This document shows positions 9,473 through 27,015 of a stretch of 32,000 nucleotides of DNA, in pieces. The notes beneath the pieces were generated by a model. That model saw only the letters and a program-made list of their open reading frames with translations, made no database searches and was not told where the DNA came from. The stretch is taken from assembly GCF_009617975.1 (NCBI RefSeq), contig NZ_CP040089.1, positions 90,001-122,000 of the forward strand, read 5' to 3'. Within the stretch, counting starts at the first letter, position 1, and each line of letters starts with the position of its first letter. Both the position numbers and the translations under genes were made by a program. The DNA is from Candidatus Nanohalobium constans. Its GTDB lineage: Archaea; Nanohalarchaeota; Nanosalinia; Nanosalinales; Nanosalinaceae.

Positions 9473-10240
9473 ATGACCCGATTGATATGTGTGAGCAGTG
9501 GCAAGGGAGGGGTCGGAAAAACCACGACAACAGCAAATATAGGAGCTGCACTGAGCCAGTTTGGGGCTGATACGGTGGTTCTAGACGCAAATCTTACTAA
9601 CCCAAACCTAGGATTCCACATAGGAATACCACTATACCCTAAGACGCTGCACGATGTTCTCAAAGGAGACGCACATATCACAGAAGCAATGTACATCCAT
9701 GACTCTGGTCTAAGAGTTGTACCTGCAGGACTATCTGTTGAAGATCTTAGAGATACTTCTCCAGAAAACTTATCTGATGTACTTCTGGATACTGTCGGTG
9801 AACCGGACTTCGTCCTTGTAGACTCGGCCGCAGGACTTGGAAACGAATCTATCAATGCTATTGAAGCTTCTGATGAGGTTATGATTGTAACTAATCCTAA
9901 TCTTCCTGCAGTAACAGATGCTTTGAAGACAGTGAATGTTGCTGAGGAAGCAGGTACTGAGATCGCAGGAGTAGTCCTGAATATGGTTAAAGATCATGAT
10001 TCTGAACTTGACAAAGAAGAAGTCGAGTCAATGATCGGCTACGAGGTTCTGATGGAGGTTCCTCATCACGAGAAGGTTGAGGAAGCTCTTTCAGCCAAGA
10101 AACCTGTTGTTCATCATGCACCAGATCATCATGTGTCTGAAAGGTTCAAGAAAGTCGCTGCGGATCTTGCAGAGCTCGAATATGAGCCTGATCTGGATGA
10201 GGATGGTTTTTTGCAGAGTTTGTTTGGCAGGTTCAGATAA
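9473..10240 (+). CDS. MinD/ParA-family P-loop ATPase (archaeal MinD-like), copy 1
   Basis: Deviant Walker A SSGKGGVGKTTTTANIG; VLVDSAAG Walker B region; 255 aa. Confidence 0.85.
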   Translation: MTRLICVSSGKGGVGKTTTTANIGAALSQFGADTVVLDANLTNPNLGFHIGIPLYPKTLHDVLKGDAHITEAMYIHDSGLRVVPAGLSVEDLRDTSPENLSDVLLDTVGEPDFVLVDSAAGLGNESINAIEASDEVMIVTNPNLPAVTDALKTVNVAEEAGTEIAGVVLNMVKDHDSELDKEEVESMIGYEVLMEVPHHEKVEEALSAKKPVVHHAPDHHVSERFKKVAADLAELEYEPDLDEDGFLQSLFGRFR

Positions 10241-10281
10241 GTGTATAAGTGGTTTTTTATTGAAGCTTTGAGAAAAGTGAA

Positions 10282-11046
10282 TTGATGACCCGTATTATTT
10301 CTGTTGTCTCGGGAAAAGGTGGTGTCGGCAAAACCACTGTAACAGCCAATCTAGGAACAGAACTGGCCAAACAGGATCACGATGTGCTGATTATTGACGG
10401 AAACTTTTCCGGGGCCAACATTTCACAACACTTCGGACTCGGATTCCAGGAAGTATCACTAAACGATGTTCTCAATGGGGAAGCATACATCACACAGGCA
10501 GTCTCCAAACACAGTGAAGGAGTATCTGTTCTTCCAGCAAGTATATTAGACTTTAACGCCGACGCAGAAAAGCTAAGGCATTCTATAGTAGACTTCCTAG
10601 GCGATAAAGATTTTGTATTAATTGATACTGCGGCAGGAGTAGGAGATGAAGTCGAAGCAGGTATACAGGCCTCCGATGAAGTACTTCTAGTATCCGAACC
10701 AGAACTTCCTGCGTTGACGAATGCACTGGGTGCAAAGAAACTTGCGGAACAACTAGACAGAGATGTCCTCGGTTTAGCTCTAAACAGTGTCAGAGATGAA
10801 CAATCAGAAGTCCAGCACGAAGATATCAGAGATCTGATTGAAGAGGAAATAATAGCTGAAATACCTGATCACCAGCATGTAAGAGAAGGAATAGCATTGA
10901 GAGAACCGGTGGTAAGCTACAAACCAAACTCTAGACCTTCGAACAGGATTGAAGACCTGGCATACAGAATCAAAGGACAGGAGCCTCCACAGAGAGGACT
11001 TCAAGAGAGACTGGTTGAAAGAGTAAACGATTTCCAACTTTTCTAG
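10282..11046 (+). CDS. MinD/ParA-family P-loop ATPase, copy 2 (start more likely ATG 10285)
   Basis: VSGKGGVGKTTVTANLG; VLIDTAAG; collinear with copy 1 over the full length. Confidence 0.85.
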   Translation: MMTRIISVVSGKGGVGKTTVTANLGTELAKQDHDVLIIDGNFSGANISQHFGLGFQEVSLNDVLNGEAYITQAVSKHSEGVSVLPASILDFNADAEKLRHSIVDFLGDKDFVLIDTAAGVGDEVEAGIQASDEVLLVSEPELPALTNALGAKKLAEQLDRDVLGLALNSVRDEQSEVQHEDIRDLIEEEIIAEIPDHQHVREGIALREPVVSYKPNSRPSNRIEDLAYRIKGQEPPQRGLQERLVERVNDFQLF

Positions 11047-22072: not shown

Positions 22073-22378
22073 TTGGCTGATAAGATAATAGATAGCAGGG
22101 ATGAAAAACAGAGCTCAGAAGGCCAAACATACATACTGGATGTAGTCGCTTACACTGTTCCAGAAAGCGACCAATTTCCATCAGGGGTAAAGTACAGCTT
22201 CCAAGCTGTATACAAGGAAACGGAACAGCTAATCGTCCGTTACGATAACGCAAACGATAGTCACGCAGCCAAACACCACAAACATGTCATGAAAGATGGA
22301 GAAGAAACTACTGAGTCACTTGAACTACAACCAGGAAACGCAAAACAACTGCATAAACTATTCCAAAAAATGGATTGA
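22073..22378 (+). CDS. DUF6516/TumE-like small protein (putative toxin of a two-gene module)
   Basis: About 100 aa with VRYDNANDSHAAKHHKHV (RYDN..H....HHKH signature as I remember for this family); followed 15 nt later by an HTH partner. Confidence 0.45.
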   Translation: MADKIIDSRDEKQSSEGQTYILDVVAYTVPESDQFPSGVKYSFQAVYKETEQLIVRYDNANDSHAAKHHKHVMKDGEETTESLELQPGNAKQLHKLFQKMD

Positions 22379-22392
22379 AGAGATGAAACAAA

Positions 22393-22845
22393 ATGTCAAA
22401 TGAAAACAGAATTGAAAGAGAAATACCGTACGGGAAAAAACTTGTAATAAAAGAGAGAAATCTGGAACAGGCAGTAGAGGACATGAATCAGCAATTTGAA
22501 TCCTTTATCGAAGATGGAGAAGAATCAGGTGTGGTTGTAGGATTTGAAGATCCTGAAAAAATAAGGCAGATCTTAACTCCTAAGAGAAGAGAATTAATGA
22601 GCGCCATAATATCTGCAGAGCCAGAAAGCATAAGCCAATTAGCAGACATAACAGATAGAGGAATTACAGAAGTACACAGAGACCTAGAAATACTGAAAGA
22701 AAATAAACTAGTCTACATCGAAGGAGAAGAAGTCAACGGCAAAGCCAAGAAACCAGTAGTACCCTACTCAGACATAGAAATCAATTACAACCTGAAAAGC
22801 AGCTTGATGAGTAATAAAGAAGTGAAAGACTTTAAAACAGCTTAG
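22393..22845 (+). CDS. Winged-HTH DNA-binding protein (HVO_A0114/TumA-like putative antitoxin/regulator)
   Basis: VVGFEDPEKIRQILTPKRRELMSAIISAEPESISQLADITDRGITEVHRDLEILKENKLVYIE..KAKKPVVPYSDIEI matches the pattern of this haloarchaeal regulator family. Confidence 0.55.
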   Translation: MSNENRIEREIPYGKKLVIKERNLEQAVEDMNQQFESFIEDGEESGVVVGFEDPEKIRQILTPKRRELMSAIISAEPESISQLADITDRGITEVHRDLEILKENKLVYIEGEEVNGKAKKPVVPYSDIEINYNLKSSLMSNKEVKDFKTA

Positions 22846-22934: not shown

Positions 22935-22946
22935 GGTTTTAAATCC
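22935..22946 (+). promoter_or_regulatory. TATA/BRE-like box (GGTTTTAAATCC) upstream of the DGR target gene
   Basis: Near-identical to GGTTTAAATCC at 30122-30132; an ATG at 22968 lies about 27 nt downstream of the box centre. Confidence 0.4.
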
Positions 22947-22998
22947 GGTATTCTCCAACATGTACACATGAGTACGCAACTAGAATCATCACCTCGAG

Positions 22999-24243
22999 GT
23001 GACGAAACATCGAAGTGTCACACACACACACGAACTTCTGAATAAGTCTAAGGGCCAGTCGGCTATTGAGTATTTGACTACTTATGGTTGGATGTTGTTG
23101 GTTATTGCTATTGTTGGTGGTGCTGTTTTTACTACTGTTCAAGGTAGTTCTAGTTTGGATTCTAGTGGTTTTGATGCGGTTAGTGGTGTTGCTTTTGTTG
23201 ATGGTGGTTTAACGAGTGATAATACTTTTCAGATGCGTCTTCGTAATCAGGAAGCCGAAGAAATGACGGTAGAAAAAATAACTCTAACCAATGAAGCAGG
23301 AAACAAAGTCGTTGCCCGACCAGGCAAAACTCTGCCAGTCGGAGAAGAAAAAACATTTAATACAATAGGCTTAACTGAAACTGGAGGACAAAATAGTGTT
23401 AATGTTGAAATTACTTATGATACTGGTGGTTTGAATAATTTAGCGGTTAATGGCAGTATCACCGGTGCCTTCAGCCTTGACACTGAGAGGGCTGAGCCTG
23501 GAAACGGCGAATGGGAGTTCGTTGATGTCTCTGAAGTCAATCAGTCAACTGTTGATACCAGTGAAATGTCTGACTTCTATATTATGAAGTATGAGGCTTC
23601 TCGGAGTGATGCTAATTCTACTGACGCAGGTTCTGAATCAACTCCTGTTTCTCAGCAAGGAGTCGTTCCATGGGTTCAAATCAGTCAGAACGAGGCTATT
23701 GATAAGTGTCAGCAGGCAGGCTTCAATTTACCGAGTAACAGGCAGTGGCAGGCTGCAACAATGGCAGAAATAGGAAACTCTTCTACACAACCACTCGGTA
23801 ATACGAATAATAATGAGGACAGTAATGGGGATCAGGGAACGATAGATCCAACAAGTCATGACTGGAACAGTGACGGTGAGAATGATAGGACTTTGACTGG
23901 GAGTGGTCCGGATACTTGGGCTAACACGATTGGAGTCCATGATTTGAATGGTAATGTCTGGGAGTGGACACGGACTGTTGTTGATCAAAGTCATCCGATG
24001 CATAAGGGCGGTAGTAATGGTCAGGTCTCGTCTTGGAACAACAATGGCTATCCAGAAACACTCGGCAGCAGTAATTCTGACTTTGGAGGCGACTATTACT
24101 GGTCTTCGAGTGATGATAATCGTGCCGTTCAACGCGGTGGTGGCGCGCGCAATGGTGCGCGCGCCGGAGTGTTCTCCCTGACCCTGCACAACGCTCCTTC
24201 GCGCTCGCTCAGGTACATCGGGTTCCGGTGTTCTTTTTCCTGA
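22999..24243 (+). CDS. DGR variable (target) protein: class III signal peptide/type IV pilin-like N-terminus plus C-terminal FGE-sulfatase/C-type-lectin-fold domain carrying the VR
   Basis: N-terminus NKSKGQSAIEYLTTYGWMLLVIAIVGGAVFTTV (archaeal prepilin-type KGQ..EYL plus hydrophobic helix). C-terminus FYIMKYEASR, VPWVQISQNEAIDKC, LPSNRQWQAA, HDLNGNVWEWT, RGGG....IGFRC (FGE/CLec hallmarks). The last 38 codons are the VR. The only plausible in-frame start is GTG. Confidence 0.85.
   Translation: MTKHRSVTHTHELLNKSKGQSAIEYLTTYGWMLLVIAIVGGAVFTTVQGSSSLDSSGFDAVSGVAFVDGGLTSDNTFQMRLRNQEAEEMTVEKITLTNEAGNKVVARPGKTLPVGEEKTFNTIGLTETGGQNSVNVEITYDTGGLNNLAVNGSITGAFSLDTERAEPGNGEWEFVDVSEVNQSTVDTSEMSDFYIMKYEASRSDANSTDAGSESTPVSQQGVVPWVQISQNEAIDKCQQAGFNLPSNRQWQAATMAEIGNSSTQPLGNTNNNEDSNGDQGTIDPTSHDWNSDGENDRTLTGSGPDTWANTIGVHDLNGNVWEWTRTVVDQSHPMHKGGSNGQVSSWNNNGYPETLGSSNSDFGGDYYWSSSDDNRAVQRGGGARNGARAGVFSLTLHNAPSRSLRYIGFRCSFS
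23019..23031 (+). repeat. (CA)6C dinucleotide microsatellite inside the 5' end of the DGR target gene
   Basis: CACACACACACAC, read directly from the sequence; encodes THTH in the annotated frame. Confidence 0.9.
24121..24234 (+). repeat. DGR variable repeat (VR), in frame at the 3' end of the target gene
   Basis: 114 bp collinear with 25007-25120 (offset 886). 15 mismatches at TR adenines and 1 at a TR cytosine (synonymous GGA/GGC). An identical GC-rich 3' block CATCGGGTTCCGGTGT is the IMH candidate. Confidence 0.9.
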
Positions 24244-24250
24244 TTGCTGA

Positions 24251-24646
24251 GTGCTGGGTTGCGAGGTGATCAGAATGGGTGAAGTGGATTTTACTGGTTT
24301 GCAGGCGTATGAGGAGGTTTCTCCTGCGGTTGTGAAAGGATTAAAGTTGCTGAGAGACTTGGATGATTATGATACTTATTGGGATTTTATTTTGAAAGGT
24401 CTGCGGCGTGACTTAGCTGAATCCCTACCCCTGCTCGCTGATGGGTATAACCGGTATCATTATGATGAGAAGGCTGAAGCTTACAAAAAAGTCAGGAGTA
24501 AGCTGTCTCGTTGTCAGTCCTGTTTCCTGATTTTGAAGGATATCGGGGTTTTAACGAACGAGGATGTAGATTCAATCTGCCGTAGTTTGGAAGGTGGTAT
24601 TGGACGCCTTAATGGTTTGATCAGTCGAATGGAGGATGATGAGTGA
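24251..24646 (+). CDS. DGR-associated hypothetical protein, possibly a divergent second Avd-like helical bundle (start more likely ATG 24275)
   Basis: Lies between the target gene and avd. Its TGA overlaps the avd ATG (TGATG). The C-terminal half ..YKKVRSKLSRCQSCFLILKDIGVLTNEDVDSICRSLEGGIGRLNGLI parallels avd ..LRKADRELEKTKIFFRLSRDLGFISSGQHENISEDLVELGKMLGGWI. Confidence 0.5.
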   Translation: MLGCEVIRMGEVDFTGLQAYEEVSPAVVKGLKLLRDLDDYDTYWDFILKGLRRDLAESLPLLADGYNRYHYDEKAEAYKKVRSKLSRCQSCFLILKDIGVLTNEDVDSICRSLEGGIGRLNGLISRMEDDE

Positions 24647-24978
24647 TGCAGGATCTTAAACTGTTTCAGAAAAGCTATGATTTTTATGAGGAAGTTTATC
24701 CAACGCTGAAGAACTTTCCCCAATCGGAGCGTTTTGTTATGGTTCAGAAGATTCAGGATTCTTTCTTGGAGTTTATTTCTCACATTATTTCAGCTCGAAA
24801 AGCCAGTAACACGCTTCACCACTTGAGGAAGGCAGATAGGGAATTAGAAAAGACGAAGATTTTCTTCCGTCTTTCCCGTGATCTCGGCTTCATCTCCTCT
24901 GGACAACATGAAAATATTTCTGAGGATTTAGTTGAGCTAGGTAAGATGCTTGGAGGCTGGATTGAAAATGAAAAATGA
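24643..24978 (+). CDS. avd: Accessory variability determinant (Avd; four-helix-bundle, 23S-rRNA-IVS-protein family); start likely ATG 24646
   Basis: About 110 aa, helical, LKLFQKSYDFYEEVYPTLKNFPQSERFVMVQKIQDS... and C-terminal ELGKMLGGWI (compare BPP-1 Avd ..VGRILGSWI); located immediately upstream of the TR. Confidence 0.8.
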   Translation: MMQDLKLFQKSYDFYEEVYPTLKNFPQSERFVMVQKIQDSFLEFISHIISARKASNTLHHLRKADRELEKTKIFFRLSRDLGFISSGQHENISEDLVELGKMLGGWIENEK

Positions 24979-25006
24979 TATTAAGGCAGATGCTGTTTTC
25001 GGAACT

Positions 25007-25120
25007 CGTGCCGTTCAACGCGGTGGTAACGCGAACAATGGTGCAAACGCCGGCGTGTTCTCCATGAACCTGAACAACGCTCCTTCGAACTCGAACAGGA
25101 ACATCGGGTTCCGGTGTCCT
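25007..25120 (+). repeat. DGR template repeat (TR), non-coding template RNA region
   Basis: In the VR frame it contains 9 AAC codons plus AAT; 8 of the 9 AAC codons differ in the VR (GGC, CGC, CGC, ACC, CAC, CGC, CTC, TAC). Confidence 0.9.
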
Positions 25121-25127
25121 CCCAACT

Positions 25128-25150
25128 ACTTCAAACATTCTGTTTGGAGT
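25128..25150 (+). other. Predicted RNA hairpin immediately 3' of the TR (10-bp stem including one G-U, 3-nt loop)
   Basis: ACTTCAAACA-TTC-TGTTTGGAGT; paired by eye. Confidence 0.3.
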
Positions 25151-25363
25151 TCGAGCAAATCCTTGATTTGCGACAGGCGAGAACTCAGTCATCCAATTTC
25201 TTTGGGATGCTGGGGCAAAGCCAACCGGAGGGAGAACTTCGGTATCTGCCAGCCCAACCAACACGATTGTGTGGAGGCGAAAAATTCTCTTACCAAAAAA
25301 TGGGCGACAGCCAGTAAACCATTGATGGTTGAAAGCTGAAGCCCATCTACATCTACTTTCATC

Positions 25364-26362
25364 ATGGTAAACAGCTTTTCAAAAGACTTTGAAACTGTAG
25401 CTGGGTTTCAACCGCTTTACAAAGGCTACAAGAAAGCAAGGAAGGGCAAGCGTTACAGCAGTGAGGTATTAGCTTTTTCTGAAAGCCTTGAAGACAACCT
25501 TTTCGATCTCTCAAACGATCTTTTGACACAGAGTTACTGCCCTAAGGGTTTCAAGGAGTTTAAACTGTTTGATCCAAAGGAAAGAGAGATTAAAGCCCCT
25601 TATTTCCGTGACAGGATAGTTCATAGAAGCCTTCACATATCTCTGGAACCTTTCTTCGATAAAAGGTTTATAGAGCATTCTTATGCGTGTAGAAAAGGTA
25701 AAGGCACGCATGCCGGTGTTGATAAGGCACAAGAATTTATGAACAAGAGTGATGCCGAATACTTTCTGAAATGTGATGTTGAAGACTACTTTGGCTCCGT
25801 TGATCATAAAATCCTAACTGATATGTTGGATAGGAAGATTAGAGATGATAGGATAGTTGATTTAGTTAGAACTATTTTAGCGGATTCTGGAGACAAGGGT
25901 ATGCCTATCGGCACTCTTTACAGCCAGTTATTCGCCAATATCTATCTTAACAAGTTTGATCATTTTGTAAAACAGTCGCTTCAGGCTGATTACTATGTTC
26001 GTTACATGGACGATTTCGTGTTTTTCAGTGATTCCAAGCAACGGCTTCATCAGTTGAGGGAGGCGTCTAAAGGATTTCTTAGGAAGGAGCTGGATCTGTC
26101 GCTGCCGTTCTCCAAAACTACTTTAGAACCAATCCAAAAAGGATTGATCTTTCTTGGTTACAGAATCTTTCCAAATCACAGAAAGCTCAGGAAAAGAAAC
26201 AAGCTGGGTTTCAAGGAAAGGCATGGAAAGCAGAGATCAGAGTTACAACGGGGTGAATTGACTTTTTCTGAGTTGAGGGATTCTATTGAGTCTTGGAAAG
26301 GACATGCTGAACACGCAGATACAGAAAACCTGTGTGAAAACTTTCTTGGCAGTTTGAGTTAA
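25364..26362 (+). CDS. DGR-type reverse transcriptase
   Basis: RT motifs FRDRIVHRSL, SYACRKGKGTH, LKCDVEDYFGSVDH, the DGR-diagnostic PIGTLYSQLFANIYLN ([ILV]GxxxSQ), YVRYMDDFVFF (YxDD) and FLGYRIF. Confidence 0.9.
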   Translation: MVNSFSKDFETVAGFQPLYKGYKKARKGKRYSSEVLAFSESLEDNLFDLSNDLLTQSYCPKGFKEFKLFDPKEREIKAPYFRDRIVHRSLHISLEPFFDKRFIEHSYACRKGKGTHAGVDKAQEFMNKSDAEYFLKCDVEDYFGSVDHKILTDMLDRKIRDDRIVDLVRTILADSGDKGMPIGTLYSQLFANIYLNKFDHFVKQSLQADYYVRYMDDFVFFSDSKQRLHQLREASKGFLRKELDLSLPFSKTTLEPIQKGLIFLGYRIFPNHRKLRKRNKLGFKERHGKQRSELQRGELTFSELRDSIESWKGHAEHADTENLCENFLGSLS

Positions 26363-26622
26363 TTTTTTTCAACTTGTTTGAGTCTTTTCTTGATTTTATT
26401 CTCTGCTTCTCCTTCCAGCTCTACTTTTTCTATTTTTCCTTGTTCTGTGAGTTCCAGAATTGCTTCTTCCTTTTTAGTCAGATTTTTCCCTTTATTATCT
26501 TCTTTAAGGTATCCTCTTATGGCTTCTCTTACTACTTCAGACATTGAACTGTAGTATTCTTCTTCTTTCTTCTTTTCAAGATCTTTCCTCATTCCGTCAG
26601 GAACTTCCACACTTAAGGTCAT
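26359..26622 (-). CDS. Ribbon-helix-helix (CopG/Arc-like) DNA-binding protein, antitoxin-like
   Basis: N-terminal beta-strand MTLSVEVPDGM.. followed by SMSEVVREAIRGYL, typical of RHH proteins. Convergent with the RT, with overlapping stops. Confidence 0.65.
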   Translation of the reverse strand: MTLSVEVPDGMRKDLEKKKEEEYYSSMSEVVREAIRGYLKEDNKGKNLTKKEEAILELTEQGKIEKVELEGEAENKIKKRLKQVEKN

Positions 26623-26733
26623 AATCTTCTATTAGGGCTGAATCCTCTTAAATCTTGCTCTTTTCTGAGAAAATTTGTTGGATAATATGGATTATTCACA
26701 GTTTTTAATAAGTAGAAGTCCGATAGGTGTTTC

Positions 26734-27015
26734 ATGGAGTTGGATTATCATAAGGGTGCTGAAAAGGATCTTGATGAGTTGAATGATGAAGTTGAAAGCG
26801 AGGTTAGAGACAAAGTATCTGAGCTTCGGGAGAAGTTGACTTCTCACTCGGATGTCAAATTGATTAATATTGAGGGTCGACCAGTTTTCCGACTGAAAGT
26901 AGGAGAAAGAAACCAAAAACTAGACCATAGGGTTATATTTGATATTAAGAACTCTGATATACTAGTTCTAGCTGTCATCCACAGGGATGAAGGGTACAAC
27001 ACCATTTCTATTTAA
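26734..27015 (+). CDS. RelE/ParE-superfamily toxin-like protein
   Basis: 93 aa; ..AEKDLDEL.., PVFRLKVGE....HRVIFDIKNSDILVLAVIHRDEGY matches the RelE/ParE core pattern (yRlRvGdyRviy.i....i.vl.v.hR...Y). Confidence 0.65.
   Translation: MELDYHKGAEKDLDELNDEVESEVRDKVSELREKLTSHSDVKLINIEGRPVFRLKVGERNQKLDHRVIFDIKNSDILVLAVIHRDEGYNTISI

What the first reader, a model, noticed from the sequence alone, without database searches (positions are those of the whole stretch)
22999..24243. DGR target fuses a type IV pilin-like (class III) signal peptide to a hypervariable C-type-lectin/FGE-fold domain
The N-terminus (..NKSKGQSAIEYLTTYGWMLLVIAIVGGAVFTTV) has the archaeal prepilin/archaellin-type layout. It has a short basic leader, a G-Q cleavage-type site, a Q-x-x-x-E spacing followed by YL, and then a hydrophobic helix. 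The C-terminal roughly 230 aa carry FGE-sulfatase/CLec hallmarks (YEASR, VSW-like PWVQIS..EAI..C, LPS..QW..A, GNVWEWT, RGG....IGFRC), and the VR forms the ligand-binding tip. Together these predict a pilus subunit or pilus-tip adhesin whose binding surface the DGR rewrites. For an obligate episymbiont this would be a plausible way to adapt to variable host cell surfaces. The linker (residues about 60-170) has no fold I can recognise.
Basis: partly seen in the sequence, partly recalled or inferred. Interest (0 to 1): 0.8.

Follow-up and report, generated by a model that had tools for sequence, protein, structure and literature searches.

The report
DGR-diversified lectin fused to archaeal pilin
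A tiny salt-loving symbiotic archaeon carries a gene that joins a type IV pilus subunit to a sugar-binding-type domain whose tip is rewritten by a retroelement. The same gene has a slippery (CA)n repeat at its start that probably switches it on and off, so it looks like an adjustable, switchable host-attachment device.

Summary
ORF 22999-24243 (414 aa) is the target of a complete DGR: VR 24120-24234, TR 25006-25120, 15 of 17 mismatches at TR adenines, Avd and RT downstream.

The window is Candidatus Nanohalobium constans. Its DGR and FGE/CLec variable proteins were published in 2020, but no pilin link was found in any paper I could read.

Three results support the pilin reading:
- The N-terminus is an EppA/Epd-type class III signal (K-2, G-1 | Q+1, E+5, then a 23-residue hydrophobic helix).
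- This pilin module is 50% identical to the organism's own 152-aa short pilin. Orthologues of that pilin lie directly after a T2SSE ATPase and two T2SSF platform genes in about 44 related loci.

The C-domain models as a CLec fold, and its best PDB match is the DGR protein TaqVP.

The protein is therefore an archaeal "modular pilin" carrying a DGR-diversified lectin module. Whether it polymerises into a pilus or only stays anchored in the membrane is not shown.

An unexpected addition is a (CA)n tract in the leader-coding region. In orthologous loci it changes length in 2-nt steps and moves the gene in or out of frame with conserved start codons. NCBI annotates the gene from L53, which removes the pilin N-terminus.

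The parts
22938..22945 (+). TATA-like box TTTTAAAT, candidate archaeal promoter of the target gene
   Evidence: Read from the sequence. TTTAAA-type boxes lie at a similar distance upstream in orthologues L160, L161 and L003. Its function as a promoter is inferred.
22968..23045 (+). Frame opened by the predicted leaderless ATG (22968). It encodes MSTQLESSPRGDETSKCHTHTRTSE*, runs through the (CA)n tract and stops at TAA 23043-23045. It is out of frame (+1) with the pilin ORF; one extra CA unit would fuse it to the prepilin.
   Evidence: In L161 the homologous ATG is in frame (MNLQSVSLLLQGGEKLECHTHTHTHEFLENSRKG|Q).
23019..23031 (+). (CA)6C dinucleotide tract in the leader-coding region. It is the only dinucleotide repeat of at least 5 units in the 32-kb window and a candidate slipped-strand phase-variation switch.
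   Evidence: In syntenic orthologous loci only the tract length differs (11, 13, 15 or 19 nt), which sets the frame relative to the upstream ATGs.
22999..23055 (+). Leader peptide if GTG 22999 is the start (aa 1-19, MTKHRSVTHTHELLNKSKG). The predicted prepilin-peptidase cleavage is after G19.
   Evidence: rules from PMC4371748. Cleavage itself is inferred.
23056..23142 (+). Mature N-terminus: Q20 (+1), E24 (+5) and the hydrophobic alpha-1 helix (aa 20-48), which is the pilin assembly helix.
   Evidence: AF2 helix 22-48. Q20-L26, Y29-L33, V35 and G40 are invariant in 60 sequences. 29 of 30 residues are identical to short pilin P0157.
23158..23478 (+). Beta-sandwich globular head of the pilin module (aa 54-160)
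   Evidence: AF2 pLDDT 85-97. Best PDB hit is 8fk7_A, the Pyrobaculum archaeal type IV pilin. Homologous to 145-170-aa stand-alone pilins.
23512..24240 (+). C-terminal CLec / FGE-sulfatase-fold ligand-binding module (aa ~172-414)
   Evidence: Pfam PF03781, E 6.2e-13. Foldseek: TaqVP 5vf4 2e-11, FGE, Mtd. phmmer against PDB: TaqVP 2.9e-8.
24120..24234 (+). Variable repeat (VR) of the DGR, encoding aa ~375-412. There are 14 diversifiable codons, about 1e14 combinations.
24251..24646 (+). Conserved 131-aa accessory ORF between the target and Avd (weak four-helix-bundle/Avd-like signal)
   Evidence: Pfam 23S_rRNA_IVP E 0.013 and TIGR02436 E 0.014. 86-89% identical in L001 and L002. A 123-136-aa ORF sits at the same place in L160-L169.
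24643..24978 (+). Avd accessory protein of the DGR
   Evidence: PF22296 bAvd, E 5.6e-24
25006..25120 (+). Template repeat (TR)
   Evidence: 15 of 17 TR/VR mismatches are at TR adenines
25364..26362 (+). DGR reverse transcriptase
   Evidence: RVT_1, E 6.6e-20. 71-73% identical to the RTs of the L001 and L002 cassettes.

Best explanation
The gene encodes an archaeal modular type IV pilin with three parts:
1. An EppA/Epd-type class III signal peptide and hydrophobic alpha-1 helix (aa 1-48).
2. The beta-sandwich head of the Nanohaloarchaeal 'system 1' pilin (aa 54-160).
3. A C-type-lectin/FGE-fold module (aa ~172-414), grafted through a short linker, whose last ~35 residues are the VR of the adjacent DGR.

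Shown here: the domain architecture; the homology of the N-module to pilins encoded next to T2SSE/T2SSF assembly genes; the CLec fold; and a TR/VR pair with adenine-specific mismatches.

Inferred mechanism: the precursor is inserted by Sec. An A24 prepilin peptidase cuts after G19, leaving Q20 as the first residue. The alpha-1 helix, almost identical to that of the cell's short pilin P0157, lets the pilus machinery take the protein up. The bulky lectin module is then displayed, most likely at the tip or sparsely along the filament, or on a short pseudopilus.

The DGR (RT, Avd, 131-aa accessory protein, TR RNA) rewrites 14 codons of the lectin surface, about 1e14 variants. This retunes binding to host (haloarchaeal) envelope glycans or proteins.

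A (CA)n tract in the leader-coding region probably adds on/off phase variation by slipped-strand mispairing. In this genome the tract length puts the conserved leaderless ATG out of frame.
For: DGR.

Organism and published DGR/CLec context: and PMC7443923.

Class III motif:
- Invariant across 68 homologues, with G/A at -1 and K at -2.
- Unique among the window's ORFs.
- Matches the experimentally defined EppA substrates KGQ(V/L/I), which carry +1 Q and +5 E (PMC4371748).

Pilin identity:
- Stand-alone 145-170-aa versions of the N-module lie directly after T2SSE (1.5e-36) and two T2SSF genes (6e-21, 3.4e-18). They are accompanied by an A24-like peptidase and 3-5 further KGQ-type proteins, in about 44 of 78 loci.
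- This layout is that of 'system 1'/Epd pili.
- P0157 of N. constans is 50% identical over 151 aa.
- In strain M3_22 the DGR-target orthologue sits next to an A24 prepilin-peptidase homologue.

Structure:
- pLDDT 85.7 for the whole protein and 82.5 for the N-module.
- TaqVP, FGE and Mtd are the top matches for the C-domain.
- 8fk7_A, an archaeal type IV pilin, is the top match for the N-module.

Recurrence: the same CLec domain is fused to a second archaeal pilin N-terminus (P0031, TIGR02537 at its cut-off) and to bacterial N_methyl prepilin N-termini (P0112, 2.2e-9). L122 among the bacterial ones has a TR in cis with 14 of 14 A-mismatches.

N-module paralogues carry LamG, GLUG, DUF285, PKD and other modules. 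This parallels bacterial modular pilins (PMC8179133).

The organism makes pilus-like filaments and has a FlaI/FlaJ/FlaJ2 operon (PMC7443923).
Against: - No curated model (Pfam PF04021 Class_IIIsignal, TIGR02537) hits this N-terminus, even at E up to 10.
- The structural match to a solved archaeal pilin is borderline (E 1.3e-3, TM 0.5). Generic Ig-like sandwiches score only slightly worse.
- No assembly genes or peptidase are in the window. I could not fetch the N. constans loci of P0157 or P0002, and no N. constans peptidase orthologue appeared.
- Archaeal class III signals also occur on non-filament proteins such as the Sulfolobus binding proteins, so polymerisation is not implied.
- The start codon is uncertain: a 19-aa leader from a GTG, with the conserved ATG out of frame. 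The gene may therefore be phase-OFF in the sequenced culture.
- DGR activity in this strain was not shown. The comparison of orthologues was uninformative.
Confidence: 0.75

Rival explanations
1. Class III-signal surface lectin that is never polymerised. The prepilin-type N-terminus serves only for export, processing and membrane anchoring, or for a very short pseudopilus stalk, as with the Sulfolobus bindosome sugar-binding proteins. The DGR-diversified CLec domain sits on the cell envelope rather than on a pilus.
For: - Archaeal prepilin peptidases process non-pilus substrates (PMC4371748).
- There are ten or more paralogues per genome with large C-terminal modules of up to ~1,290 aa, which could not all be filament subunits.
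- The target gene is not in a pilus operon in the window.
Against: - The alpha-1 helix is 29 of 30 identical to that of the operon-encoded short pilin, and its residues are invariant across the family. That is more conservation than a simple anchor needs.
- The whole pilin head domain is retained, not only the signal.
- Bacterial modular pilins with the same design are incorporated into pili (PMC8179133).
Confidence: 0.3
2. Ordinary Sec signal peptide or N-terminal transmembrane anchor. On this view the resemblance to a prepilin is coincidental.
For: Pfam and NCBIfam class III / archaeal pilin models do not match.
Against: - The motif lies before, not after, the hydrophobic domain, and is invariant in 68 homologues with G/A at -1.
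- Homologous short proteins are encoded directly after T2SSE/T2SSF genes.
- An A24 peptidase gene is adjacent in M3_22.
Confidence: 0.04
3. The public annotation is right: translation starts at TTG/L53 and gives a soluble 362-aa FGE-family protein without signal or helix.
For: NCBI record P0001. No canonical ATG is in frame upstream.
Against: - The 52 'untranslated' codons are conserved at protein level in 68 homologues. The paralogue P0002 in the same genome is annotated full-length.
- In AF2 the beta-sandwich starts at aa 54 and would be left without its helix.
- The family has no record of enzymatic FGE function. The best relatives are DGR variable proteins.
Confidence: 0.03
4. In the sequenced LC1Nh population the gene is in a phase-OFF or low-expression state. 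The conserved leaderless ATG (22968) is frame-shifted by the (CA)6C tract, so little or no full-length prepilin is made until the tract slips by one unit. This is compatible with the best explanation and concerns expression only.
For: -: ATG 22968 lies ~26 nt after the TATA-like box and reads out of frame to TAA 23043.
- orthologues with 13- or 19-nt tracts have no in-frame start.
- Gene callers then begin at M27 (P0012, P0019, P0020, P0023, P0024).
Against: An in-frame GTG at 22999 sits within a GAGGTGA (Shine-Dalgarno-like) context and could still initiate. Transcription start sites were not mapped. A consensus assembly hides subpopulations.
Confidence: 0.35

Closest known systems
DGR variable proteins with CLec/FGE fold (Thermus aquaticus TaqVP 5vf4; Treponema TvpA; Bordetella phage Mtd; archaeal AvpA), including the variable proteins already reported for Ca. 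Nanohalobium constans (La Cono et al. 2020, PMC7443923)
   Same: C-terminal CLec/FGE-type domain with the VR at the extreme C-terminus. Adenine-specific TR/VR mismatches. Avd and RT encoded downstream. TaqVP is the best structural and sequence match in the PDB.
   Different: Those proteins are described as lipoproteins, phage tail fibres or proteins without recognisable export or anchor signals. Roux et al. 2021 state that archaeal clade-5 targets typically lack any recognisable transmembrane or other domain. Here the CLec domain is grafted onto a complete type IV pilin module. The 2020 paper on this organism does not use the words pili or pilin in its main text; its supplement could not be read.
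Bacterial modular type IV pilins (Streptococcus sanguinis PilB with a vWA module and PilC with a ConA/LamG lectin module; Raynaud et al. 2021, PMC8179133)
   Same: A small pilin module (class III signal, alpha-1 helix, globular head) joined by a short linker to a bulky ligand-binding module. Paralogues carry LamG (PF13385) and other adhesion modules. Presentation by the filament is predicted to be at the tip.
   Different: This one is archaeal. It has the EppA-type motif (Q at +1) instead of the bacterial IPR012902 N-methylation motif, and a beta-sandwich head rather than the bacterial alpha-beta roll. The module is hypermutated by a DGR, which the S. sanguinis work does not describe.
Epd pili of Methanococcus maripaludis / archaeal TFF 'system 1' (EpdL ATPase, EpdJ and EpdK platform proteins, EppA peptidase, KGQ-type pilins)
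   Same: One ATPase plus two platform genes, a dedicated peptidase, and several pilins with K-G|Q...E(+5) processing sites.
   Different: The sequences are too divergent for PF04021 to score. The presumed major pilin here has a ~110-aa beta-sandwich head, whereas EpdE is reported to lack a globular domain. No experimental data exist for the Nanohaloarchaeal system.
DGR-diversified adhesive subunits of Bacteroides type V pili (bioRxiv 10.1101/2024.11.15.621889)
   Same: A DGR retunes the adhesive part of a pilus protein.
   Different: It involves a different pilus class (type V, a chaperone-free strand-exchange system), a different domain of life and a different carrier module.
Simple-sequence-repeat contingency loci of bacterial surface proteins (for example repeats in the signal-peptide-coding region of Neisseria opa genes; from general knowledge, not checked here)
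   Same: A short tandem repeat between the start codon and the mature protein changes length in whole units and shifts the reading frame.
   Different: Here it is a dinucleotide (CA)n tract in an archaeon, combined with two overlapping ATGs in different frames so that two of the three length classes are 'on'. It sits on a gene that is also a DGR target.

Membership tests
Archaeal type IV pilin / class III (EppA-type) signal peptide protein | Processing site before the hydrophobic domain: G/A/S at -1 and a charged residue at -2 | tested here: met
   K18-G19|Q20. In 68 homologues -1 is G (61) or A (7) and -2 is K in 54. Rule from PMC4371748.
Archaeal type IV pilin / class III (EppA-type) signal peptide protein | Glutamine at +1 and glutamate at +5 (EppA substrates) | tested here: met
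   Q20 and E24 are invariant in 60 aligned sequences. This is the only window ORF with [KR][GA]Q...E.
Archaeal type IV pilin / class III (EppA-type) signal peptide protein | About 20 hydrophobic residues right after the cleavage site, forming an alpha-helix | tested here: met
   aa 25-47 have mean Kyte-Doolittle hydropathy 1.65. AF2 helix 22-48.
Archaeal type IV pilin / class III (EppA-type) signal peptide protein | Match to curated models (Pfam PF04021 Class_IIIsignal, PF07790 Pilin_N, TIGR02537) | tested here: not met
   No hit at E up to 10 for the N-terminal 59 or 179 aa. Neighbouring KGQ proteins of the pilus loci reach only sub-threshold PF04021 scores (17.0 and 13.7 bits against a cut-off of 23.7).
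Archaeal type IV pilin / class III (EppA-type) signal peptide protein | Homology to a pilin encoded with the assembly ATPase and platform genes | tested here: met
   Short N-module proteins lie directly after T2SSE plus two T2SSF genes in about 44 of 78 loci. 50% identity to N. constans P0157.
Archaeal type IV pilin / class III (EppA-type) signal peptide protein | Pilin fold (N-terminal helix plus beta-rich head) resembling solved archaeal pilins | tested here: inconclusive
   8fk7_A is the top PDB hit for the N-module but is marginal (E 1.3e-3, TM 0.40/0.50). Generic Ig-like folds follow closely.
Archaeal type IV pilin / class III (EppA-type) signal peptide protein | Cleavage by a prepilin peptidase and incorporation into a filament | not testable with these tools
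   Requires biochemistry, mass spectrometry or electron microscopy. FlaFind itself was not available; I applied its motif from memory as a regular expression.
DGR variable (target) protein | VR/TR pair whose differences fall at TR adenines | tested here: met
   115 nt, 17 mismatches, 15 at TR adenines
DGR variable (target) protein | DGR-type RT and accessory protein in cis | tested here: met
   RVT_1 6.6e-20; bAvd 5.6e-24. The same cassette order occurs in L001, L002 and L160-L169.
DGR variable (target) protein | VR embedded in a C-terminal CLec fold | tested here: met
   AF2 pLDDT 85-98 over aa 172-414. TaqVP 2e-11, FGE and Mtd are the top matches.
DGR variable (target) protein | Ongoing mutagenic retrohoming in this strain | not tested
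   There is one consensus sequence and no read data. The comparison of orthologues was uninformative.
Formylglycine-generating enzyme (catalytic FGE/SUMF1) | Catalytic cysteine pair near the C-terminus / copper site | tested here: inconclusive
   Only three residues (SFS) follow C411 of the GFRC motif, so a second downstream cysteine cannot exist. The positions of the catalytic residues in human FGE are from memory, not from a tool. The best relatives are non-enzymatic DGR proteins.
Modular type IV pilin (sensu Raynaud et al. 2021) | [quoted passage not shown] | tested here: met
   aa 1-160 form the pilin module, aa 161-171 a low-confidence linker, and aa 172-414 the CLec module
Modular type IV pilin (sensu Raynaud et al. 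2021) | Bacterial IPR012902/PF07963 N-methylation motif | tested here: not met
   Absent here. It is present in the bacterial CLec relatives P0112 (2.2e-9) and in L111, L117, L122 and L131.
Simple-sequence-repeat phase-variable (contingency) gene | Repeat tract in the 5' coding region whose unit number differs between otherwise identical alleles and changes the frame | tested here: met
   Shown in orthologous loci L162/L080 (11 nt), L163/L164 (13), L165-L169 (15) and L170 (19), all with identical flanks. It was not tested within the N. constans population.

The most novel reading that the evidence does not exclude
An obligate archaeal episymbiont places two independent hypermutation devices on one pilus-displayed adhesin. 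The DGR rewrites the lectin's binding surface, which sets specificity. A (CA)n slippage tract in the cleavable leader sets expression.

Two overlapping ATGs (ATGTATG in one subgroup) make two of the three tract-length classes ON. Because the leader is removed at G|Q, both ON classes give an identical mature protein.

This would be a programmed contingency locus in Archaea. It would also give a function and a cellular location to the so far domain-less archaeal DGR targets.
Probability: 0.4. Interest if true: 0.8.

Novelty: new variant of a known kind. Interest (0 to 1): 0.62.

Why it matters
Large surveys state that DGR targets of DPANN archaea and CPR bacteria show no recognisable membrane or other domain, and leave open whether they are surface proteins at all (PMC8144416). 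For one widespread Nanohaloarchaeal family this work gives a concrete answer: the diversified lectin rides on a type IV pilin module that belongs to a conserved pilus system.

The prediction can be tested directly in a cultured symbiont-host pair, Ca. Nanohalobium constans LC1Nh with Halomicrobium. In that pair pilus-like filaments and cell-cell contact have already been imaged.

The work also shows why such targets look domain-less. The public annotation starts the gene after the signal and helix, and several metagenomic gene calls start inside the helix because a (CA)n tract shifts the frame.

The same pilin-plus-CLec design recurs with three unrelated prepilin N-termini in archaea and bacteria. 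This suggests a general solution for host attachment in ultra-small symbionts.

The repeat-length polymorphism is a rare candidate for classical phase variation in Archaea.

Tried and rejected
- **Curated models on the N-terminus.** Pfam and NCBIfam scans of the N-terminal 59 and 179 aa at E up to 10 found no class III or pilin model. I therefore relied on motif rules, homology and synteny.
- **N. constans loci.** Look-ups of P0002 (the paralogue) and P0157 (the short pilin) returned nothing. The GTDB representative set did not include this genome. The organism's own pilus locus, peptidase and second target could therefore not be inspected.
- **Metagenome scan.** Only 13 of 80 had prepilin-like N-termini. 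No TR was found within the flanks of L003, L080-L084, L101, L107, L111, L112, L117, L130 or L131. These may be remote targets, non-DGR lectins or contigs that are too short.
- **DGR activity among orthologues.** I compared L162, L163 and L170. They are only ~87% identical overall, so VR divergence (about 18%) is not clearly above background (about 14%). I dropped this test.
- **Prepilin-peptidase homologue search.** It confirmed the family (PF01478; names 'prepilin peptidase' and 'A24 family peptidase'). It listed Nanohalobium sp. MAG members but no LC1Nh protein.
- **Literature.** Paul et al. 2017 (Nat Microbiol) and the SI of La Cono et al. 2020 could not be read. Prior mention of a pilin link there cannot be excluded.
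- **VR clustering.** Whether VR residues cluster on one face was not checked, because the tools do not expose model coordinates.
- **The ORF at 24950-25339.** It is simply the TR read as protein. The antisense ORFs inside the target gene were treated as spurious.
Full report
**1. What is at the coordinates**

ORF 22999-24243(+) is real. It encodes 414 aa beginning MTKHRSVTHTHELLNKSKGQSAIEYLTTYGWMLLVIAIVGGAVFTTV and ending ...RYIGFRCSFS.

It is the target of a complete diversity-generating retroelement (DGR):
- A 115-nt VR (24120-24234) pairs with a TR (25006-25120). There are 17 mismatches, 15 of them at TR adenines, mostly in AAC codons.
- Fourteen codons are diversifiable, giving about 1e14 combinations.
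- An Avd gene (24643-24978, PF22296, 5.6e-24) and a reverse transcriptase (25364-26362, RVT_1, 6.6e-20) follow.
- A conserved 131-aa ORF (24251-24646) lies between the target and Avd.

The rest of the window is an archaeal chromosome: ribosomal proteins L10, L1 and L11, Spt5, FtsZ, LeuRS, two MinD-like genes, and a glycogen/glycolysis cluster. The DGR cassette is bracketed by toxin-antitoxin pairs. No pilus assembly gene is in the window.

**2. Organism and prior knowledge**

The protein is 100% identical to an NCBI entry of Candidatus Nanohalobium constans on a 973,463-bp contig.

La Cono et al. 2020 (PMC7443923) already reported a DGR locus in this cultured nanohaloarchaeon. They stated that its variable proteins belong to the FGE subclass with a CLec fold. 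They also describe pilus-like stalks by EM and an operon with FlaG, FlaI, FlaJ, FlaJ2 and seven hypothetical proteins. Their main text never uses the words pili or pilin, and their supplement was not readable here.

The DGR and CLec parts of the finding are therefore already known. The pilin part is not, as far as I could read.

The NCBI entry has 362 aa and starts at TTG/L53, downstream of the signal and helix.

**3. The N-terminus is an EppA/Epd-type class III signal**

Of 118 homologues, 68 contain QSAIEY. It is preceded by G (61) or A (7) at -1 and by K at -2 in 54 cases. Where a start codon is close, the leader is 3-13 aa.

In a 60-sequence alignment Q20, S21, A22, I23, E24, Y25, L26, Y29, G30, W31, M32, L33, V35 and G40 are invariant.

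These are the features established experimentally for Methanococcus maripaludis Epd pilins processed by EppA:
- sites KGQV, KGQL, KGQI and RAQI;
- a +1 glutamine that EppA requires;
- a +5 glutamate;
- a cleavage site that precedes the hydrophobic domain (PMC4371748).

In the window this is the only one of 104 ORFs with [KR][GA]Q...E near its N-terminus. It is also the only hit of a FlaFind-like pattern that is followed by a strongly hydrophobic segment (pattern written from memory).

Against formal membership, Pfam PF04021, PF07790 and TIGR02537 do not score this N-terminus at all.

**4. The supposed linker is the pilin head, and the whole N-module is a pilin**

AlphaFold2 with 40 homologues gave mean pLDDT 85.7. 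The model has a helix at 22-48, a beta-sandwich at 54-160, and a mixed alpha/beta domain from 172 to 414. A second model of aa 1-175 with 60 homologues gave pLDDT 82.5, with values above 90 in the sandwich.

The best PDB match of the N-module is the Pyrobaculum calidifontis archaeal type IV pilin 8fk7_A (E 1.3e-3, TM 0.40/0.50). It also appeared at E 2.3e-4 with the full model. This is weak, because Ig-like sandwiches follow closely.

The decisive evidence is genomic:
- A scan of GTDB representative genomes with the N-module found 153 relatives. They are mostly in Nanohaloarchaeota, often ten or more per genome, and also in Woesearchaeota, Nanoarchaeota, Iainarchaeota and Methanosarcinales.
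- Many are only 145-170 aa long, that is, the N-module alone.
- In about 44 of 78 loci this short protein lies directly downstream of one T2SSE ATPase (PF00437, 1.5e-36) and two half-size T2SSF platform genes (6e-21, 3.4e-18).
- An A24-like peptidase and a winged-helix gene lie upstream. Three to five further KGQ-type proteins lie on the other strand.
- One ATPase plus two platform genes plus many class III proteins is the signature of archaeal TFF 'system 1', the Epd type found in methanogens and DPANN.

N. constans has its own short version, P0157 (152 aa). It is 50% identical to aa 11-160 of the DGR target, and 29 of the first 30 mature residues are identical.

In strain M3_22 the orthologous DGR cassette sits next to the A24 homologue. 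Members of that family carry PF01478 and are named prepilin peptidase by NCBI.

**5. The C-terminal domain**

Pfam FGE-sulfatase matches aa 207-411 (6.2e-13). Foldseek against the PDB ranks the DGR variable protein TaqVP first (2e-11), followed by formylglycine-generating enzymes and the phage protein Mtd. By sequence alone TaqVP is again first (2.9e-8).

The VR covers the last ~35 residues, as in known CLec variable proteins. I could not test whether the variable residues cluster on one face.

**6. A recurring design**

The N-module is a carrier for many C-terminal modules in Nanohaloarchaea. These include LamG, GLUG, DUF285, PKD, PQQ-like and PLD modules, and short cysteine-rich tails.

This mirrors the 'modular pilins' described in bacteria. 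There a functional module is grafted onto a pilin and is thought to be tip-exposed, and LamG is among the commonest modules (PMC8179133).

Conversely, the same CLec domain is found on two other kinds of N-terminus:
- a different, curated-model-positive archaeal pilin N-terminus (P0031: TIGR02537 at 20.2 bits against a cut-off of 20);
- bacterial N-methyl prepilin N-termini (P0112: PF07963, 2.2e-9).

Thirteen of 80 metagenomic CLec relatives carry one of these three prepilin types.

TR/VR pairs in cis with adenine-only mismatches were verified for Haloplanus salinus L001 (12/12), M3_22 L002 (17/17), L162 (15/15), L163 (10/11) and the bacterial L122 (14/14).

The cassette (target, 123-136-aa ORF, Avd, RT) occurs in different genomic contexts. 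In Haloplanus, a haloarchaeon, it lies within an integrase/Cdc6 island. Avd and the 131-aa protein are 84-94% identical across these cassettes, whereas the targets are 50-64% identical. The cassette is therefore mobile.

**7. Unexpected: a (CA)n switch**

Twenty-four nucleotides upstream of the G19 codon lies CACACACACACAC (23019-23031). It is the only dinucleotide repeat of at least 5 units in the window.

Such tracts of 6 nt or more occur upstream of 6 of 8 CLec-type N-module genes, but of only 2 of 69 other N-module genes. One also precedes a CLec gene with the other archaeal pilin type (L081).

In a set of syntenic loci from different samples (NikR, Zip, ..., target, 123-aa ORF, Avd, RT, DnaJ) the flanks are the same and only the tract length differs:

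| Loci | Tract length | Consequence |
|---|---|---|
| L162, L080 | 11 nt | first ATG of ATGTATG is in frame |
| L163, L164 | 13 nt | no in-frame start |
| L165-L169 | 15 nt | second ATG is in frame |
| L170 | 19 nt | no in-frame start |

. The ATGTATG motif lies about 26 nt downstream of a TATA-like box. With 13 or 19 nt, gene callers start at Met27 inside the helix (P0012, P0019, P0020, P0023, P0024).

In the window a TATA-like box (22938-22945) predicts a leaderless ATG at 22968. It reads through the tract out of frame and stops at 23043-23045. One more CA unit would fuse it to the prepilin, as is the case in L161. The in-frame alternative is GTG 22999.

I infer slipped-strand phase variation. 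This has not been shown within a single population.

**8. Mechanism and rivals**

Best-supported reading (confidence 0.75): the protein is a modular type IV pilin processed after G19. The 'system 1' pilus machinery takes it up through an alpha-1 helix that matches the short pilin. It displays a DGR-tunable lectin for attachment to the host.

The main rival (0.3) accepts the pilin module but holds that the protein stays membrane-anchored, as bindosome components do.

An ordinary Sec anchor (0.04) and the NCBI short form (0.03) are disfavoured by conservation and synteny.

Independently, the gene may be phase-OFF in the sequenced culture (0.35).

**9. Novelty and verdict**

The DGR and the CLec target in this organism are published. 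Modular pilins and DGR-tuned type V pilus adhesins are known in bacteria.

Neither the main text of the paper on this organism nor the three DGR-target papers I searched (Roux 2021, Paul 2015, Handa 2016) mentions a pilus or pilin. No paper in the library contains both 'diversity-generating retroelement' and 'prepilin'. Elsewhere, a 2024 survey lists a bacterial GspG-type pilin domain among rare domains holding a VR. The Bacteroides preprint reports DGR-diversified type V pilus adhesins.

The large survey by Roux et al. explicitly leaves open whether archaeal targets are surface proteins.

I rate this a new variant of known kinds, interest 0.62. The (CA)n switch is the most surprising element.

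Noticed in passing
window 23019-23031 (with 22938-23058); related loci L080, L162-L170, L160, L161, L002, L003, L008, L081, L082: A (CA)n tract lies in the leader-coding region of DGR-target pilin genes. In syntenic orthologues with identical flanks its length is 11, 13, 15 or 19 nt. This places one of two overlapping ATGs (ATGTATG), or neither, in frame with the prepilin. In the window the predicted leaderless ATG (22968) is out of frame. This is a candidate slipped-strand phase-variation switch in an archaeon.
   Followed up: partly
window 22999-23157: The public NCBI protein (362 aa, 'formylglycine-generating enzyme family protein') starts at TTG/L53 and so omits the class III signal and pilin helix. 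Several metagenomic gene calls for homologues start inside the helix (MTYGWMLLV...). Such truncations may explain why archaeal DGR targets are reported as lacking membrane domains.
   Followed up: yes
window 24251-24646: A conserved 131-aa ORF lies between the target and Avd, with only weak four-helix-bundle/Avd-like signals (E about 0.01). A 123-136-aa ORF sits at the same position in every related cassette examined, and is 86-89% identical in L001 and L002. It may be a second accessory protein of this DGR lineage.
   Followed up: partly
window 22073-22845 and 26359-27015; L001, L160-L169: In the window the DGR cassette is bracketed by toxin-antitoxin modules (TumE + HVO_A0114 upstream; RHH + ParE downstream) and interrupts a glycogen-metabolism gene cluster. 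The same cassette lies in different contexts elsewhere (PemK, PIN/VapB and RHH/ParE neighbours). In the haloarchaeon Haloplanus salinus it lies in an integrase/Cdc6 island. This points to horizontal transfer between symbiont-type and host-type lineages.
   Followed up: partly
L002 8447-11203 (strain M3_22, CP046106.1): The orthologous DGR target gene lies immediately next to, and divergent from, an A24 prepilin-peptidase homologue. In other genomes that peptidase heads the T2SSE/T2SSF/pilin locus.
   Followed up: yes
window 22990-23001: A perfect 12-nt palindrome, CACCTCGAGGTG, overlaps the GTG at 22999. It contains a GAGGTGA Shine-Dalgarno-like string. The GGTG(A/G)... part is conserved in orthologues L160, L161 and L003. 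Its function is unknown.
   Followed up: no
L002-L079; proteins P0041-P0109, P0177: The KGQSAIEYL pilin module is a multi-paralogue carrier family (ten or more per ~1-Mb genome). Its C-terminal modules include LamG, GLUG, DUF285, PKD, PQQ-like and PLD modules, and ~270-aa forms ending in cysteine-rich CxGxxC tails. The module alone also occurs after T2SSE/T2SSF genes in Woesearchaeota, Nanoarchaeota and Methanosarcinales MAGs.
   Followed up: partly
L122, L111, L117, L131; P0112, P0117: Bacterial proteins with canonical N-methyl prepilin N-termini (GFTLIELL...) carry the same VR-type CLec domain. L122 has a TR in cis with 14 of 14 adenine mismatches. Type IV pilin-CLec DGR targets therefore also exist in bacteria, probably in CPR-like groundwater and sludge lineages.
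   Followed up: partly
window 9473-11046: There are two adjacent MinD/ParA-family ATPase genes. A MinD-like gene also lies at the edge of the pilus loci in L037, L043, L045 and L048. FleN/MinD ATPases are listed among components of archaeal type IV pilus loci in the literature. No link was tested here.
   Followed up: no
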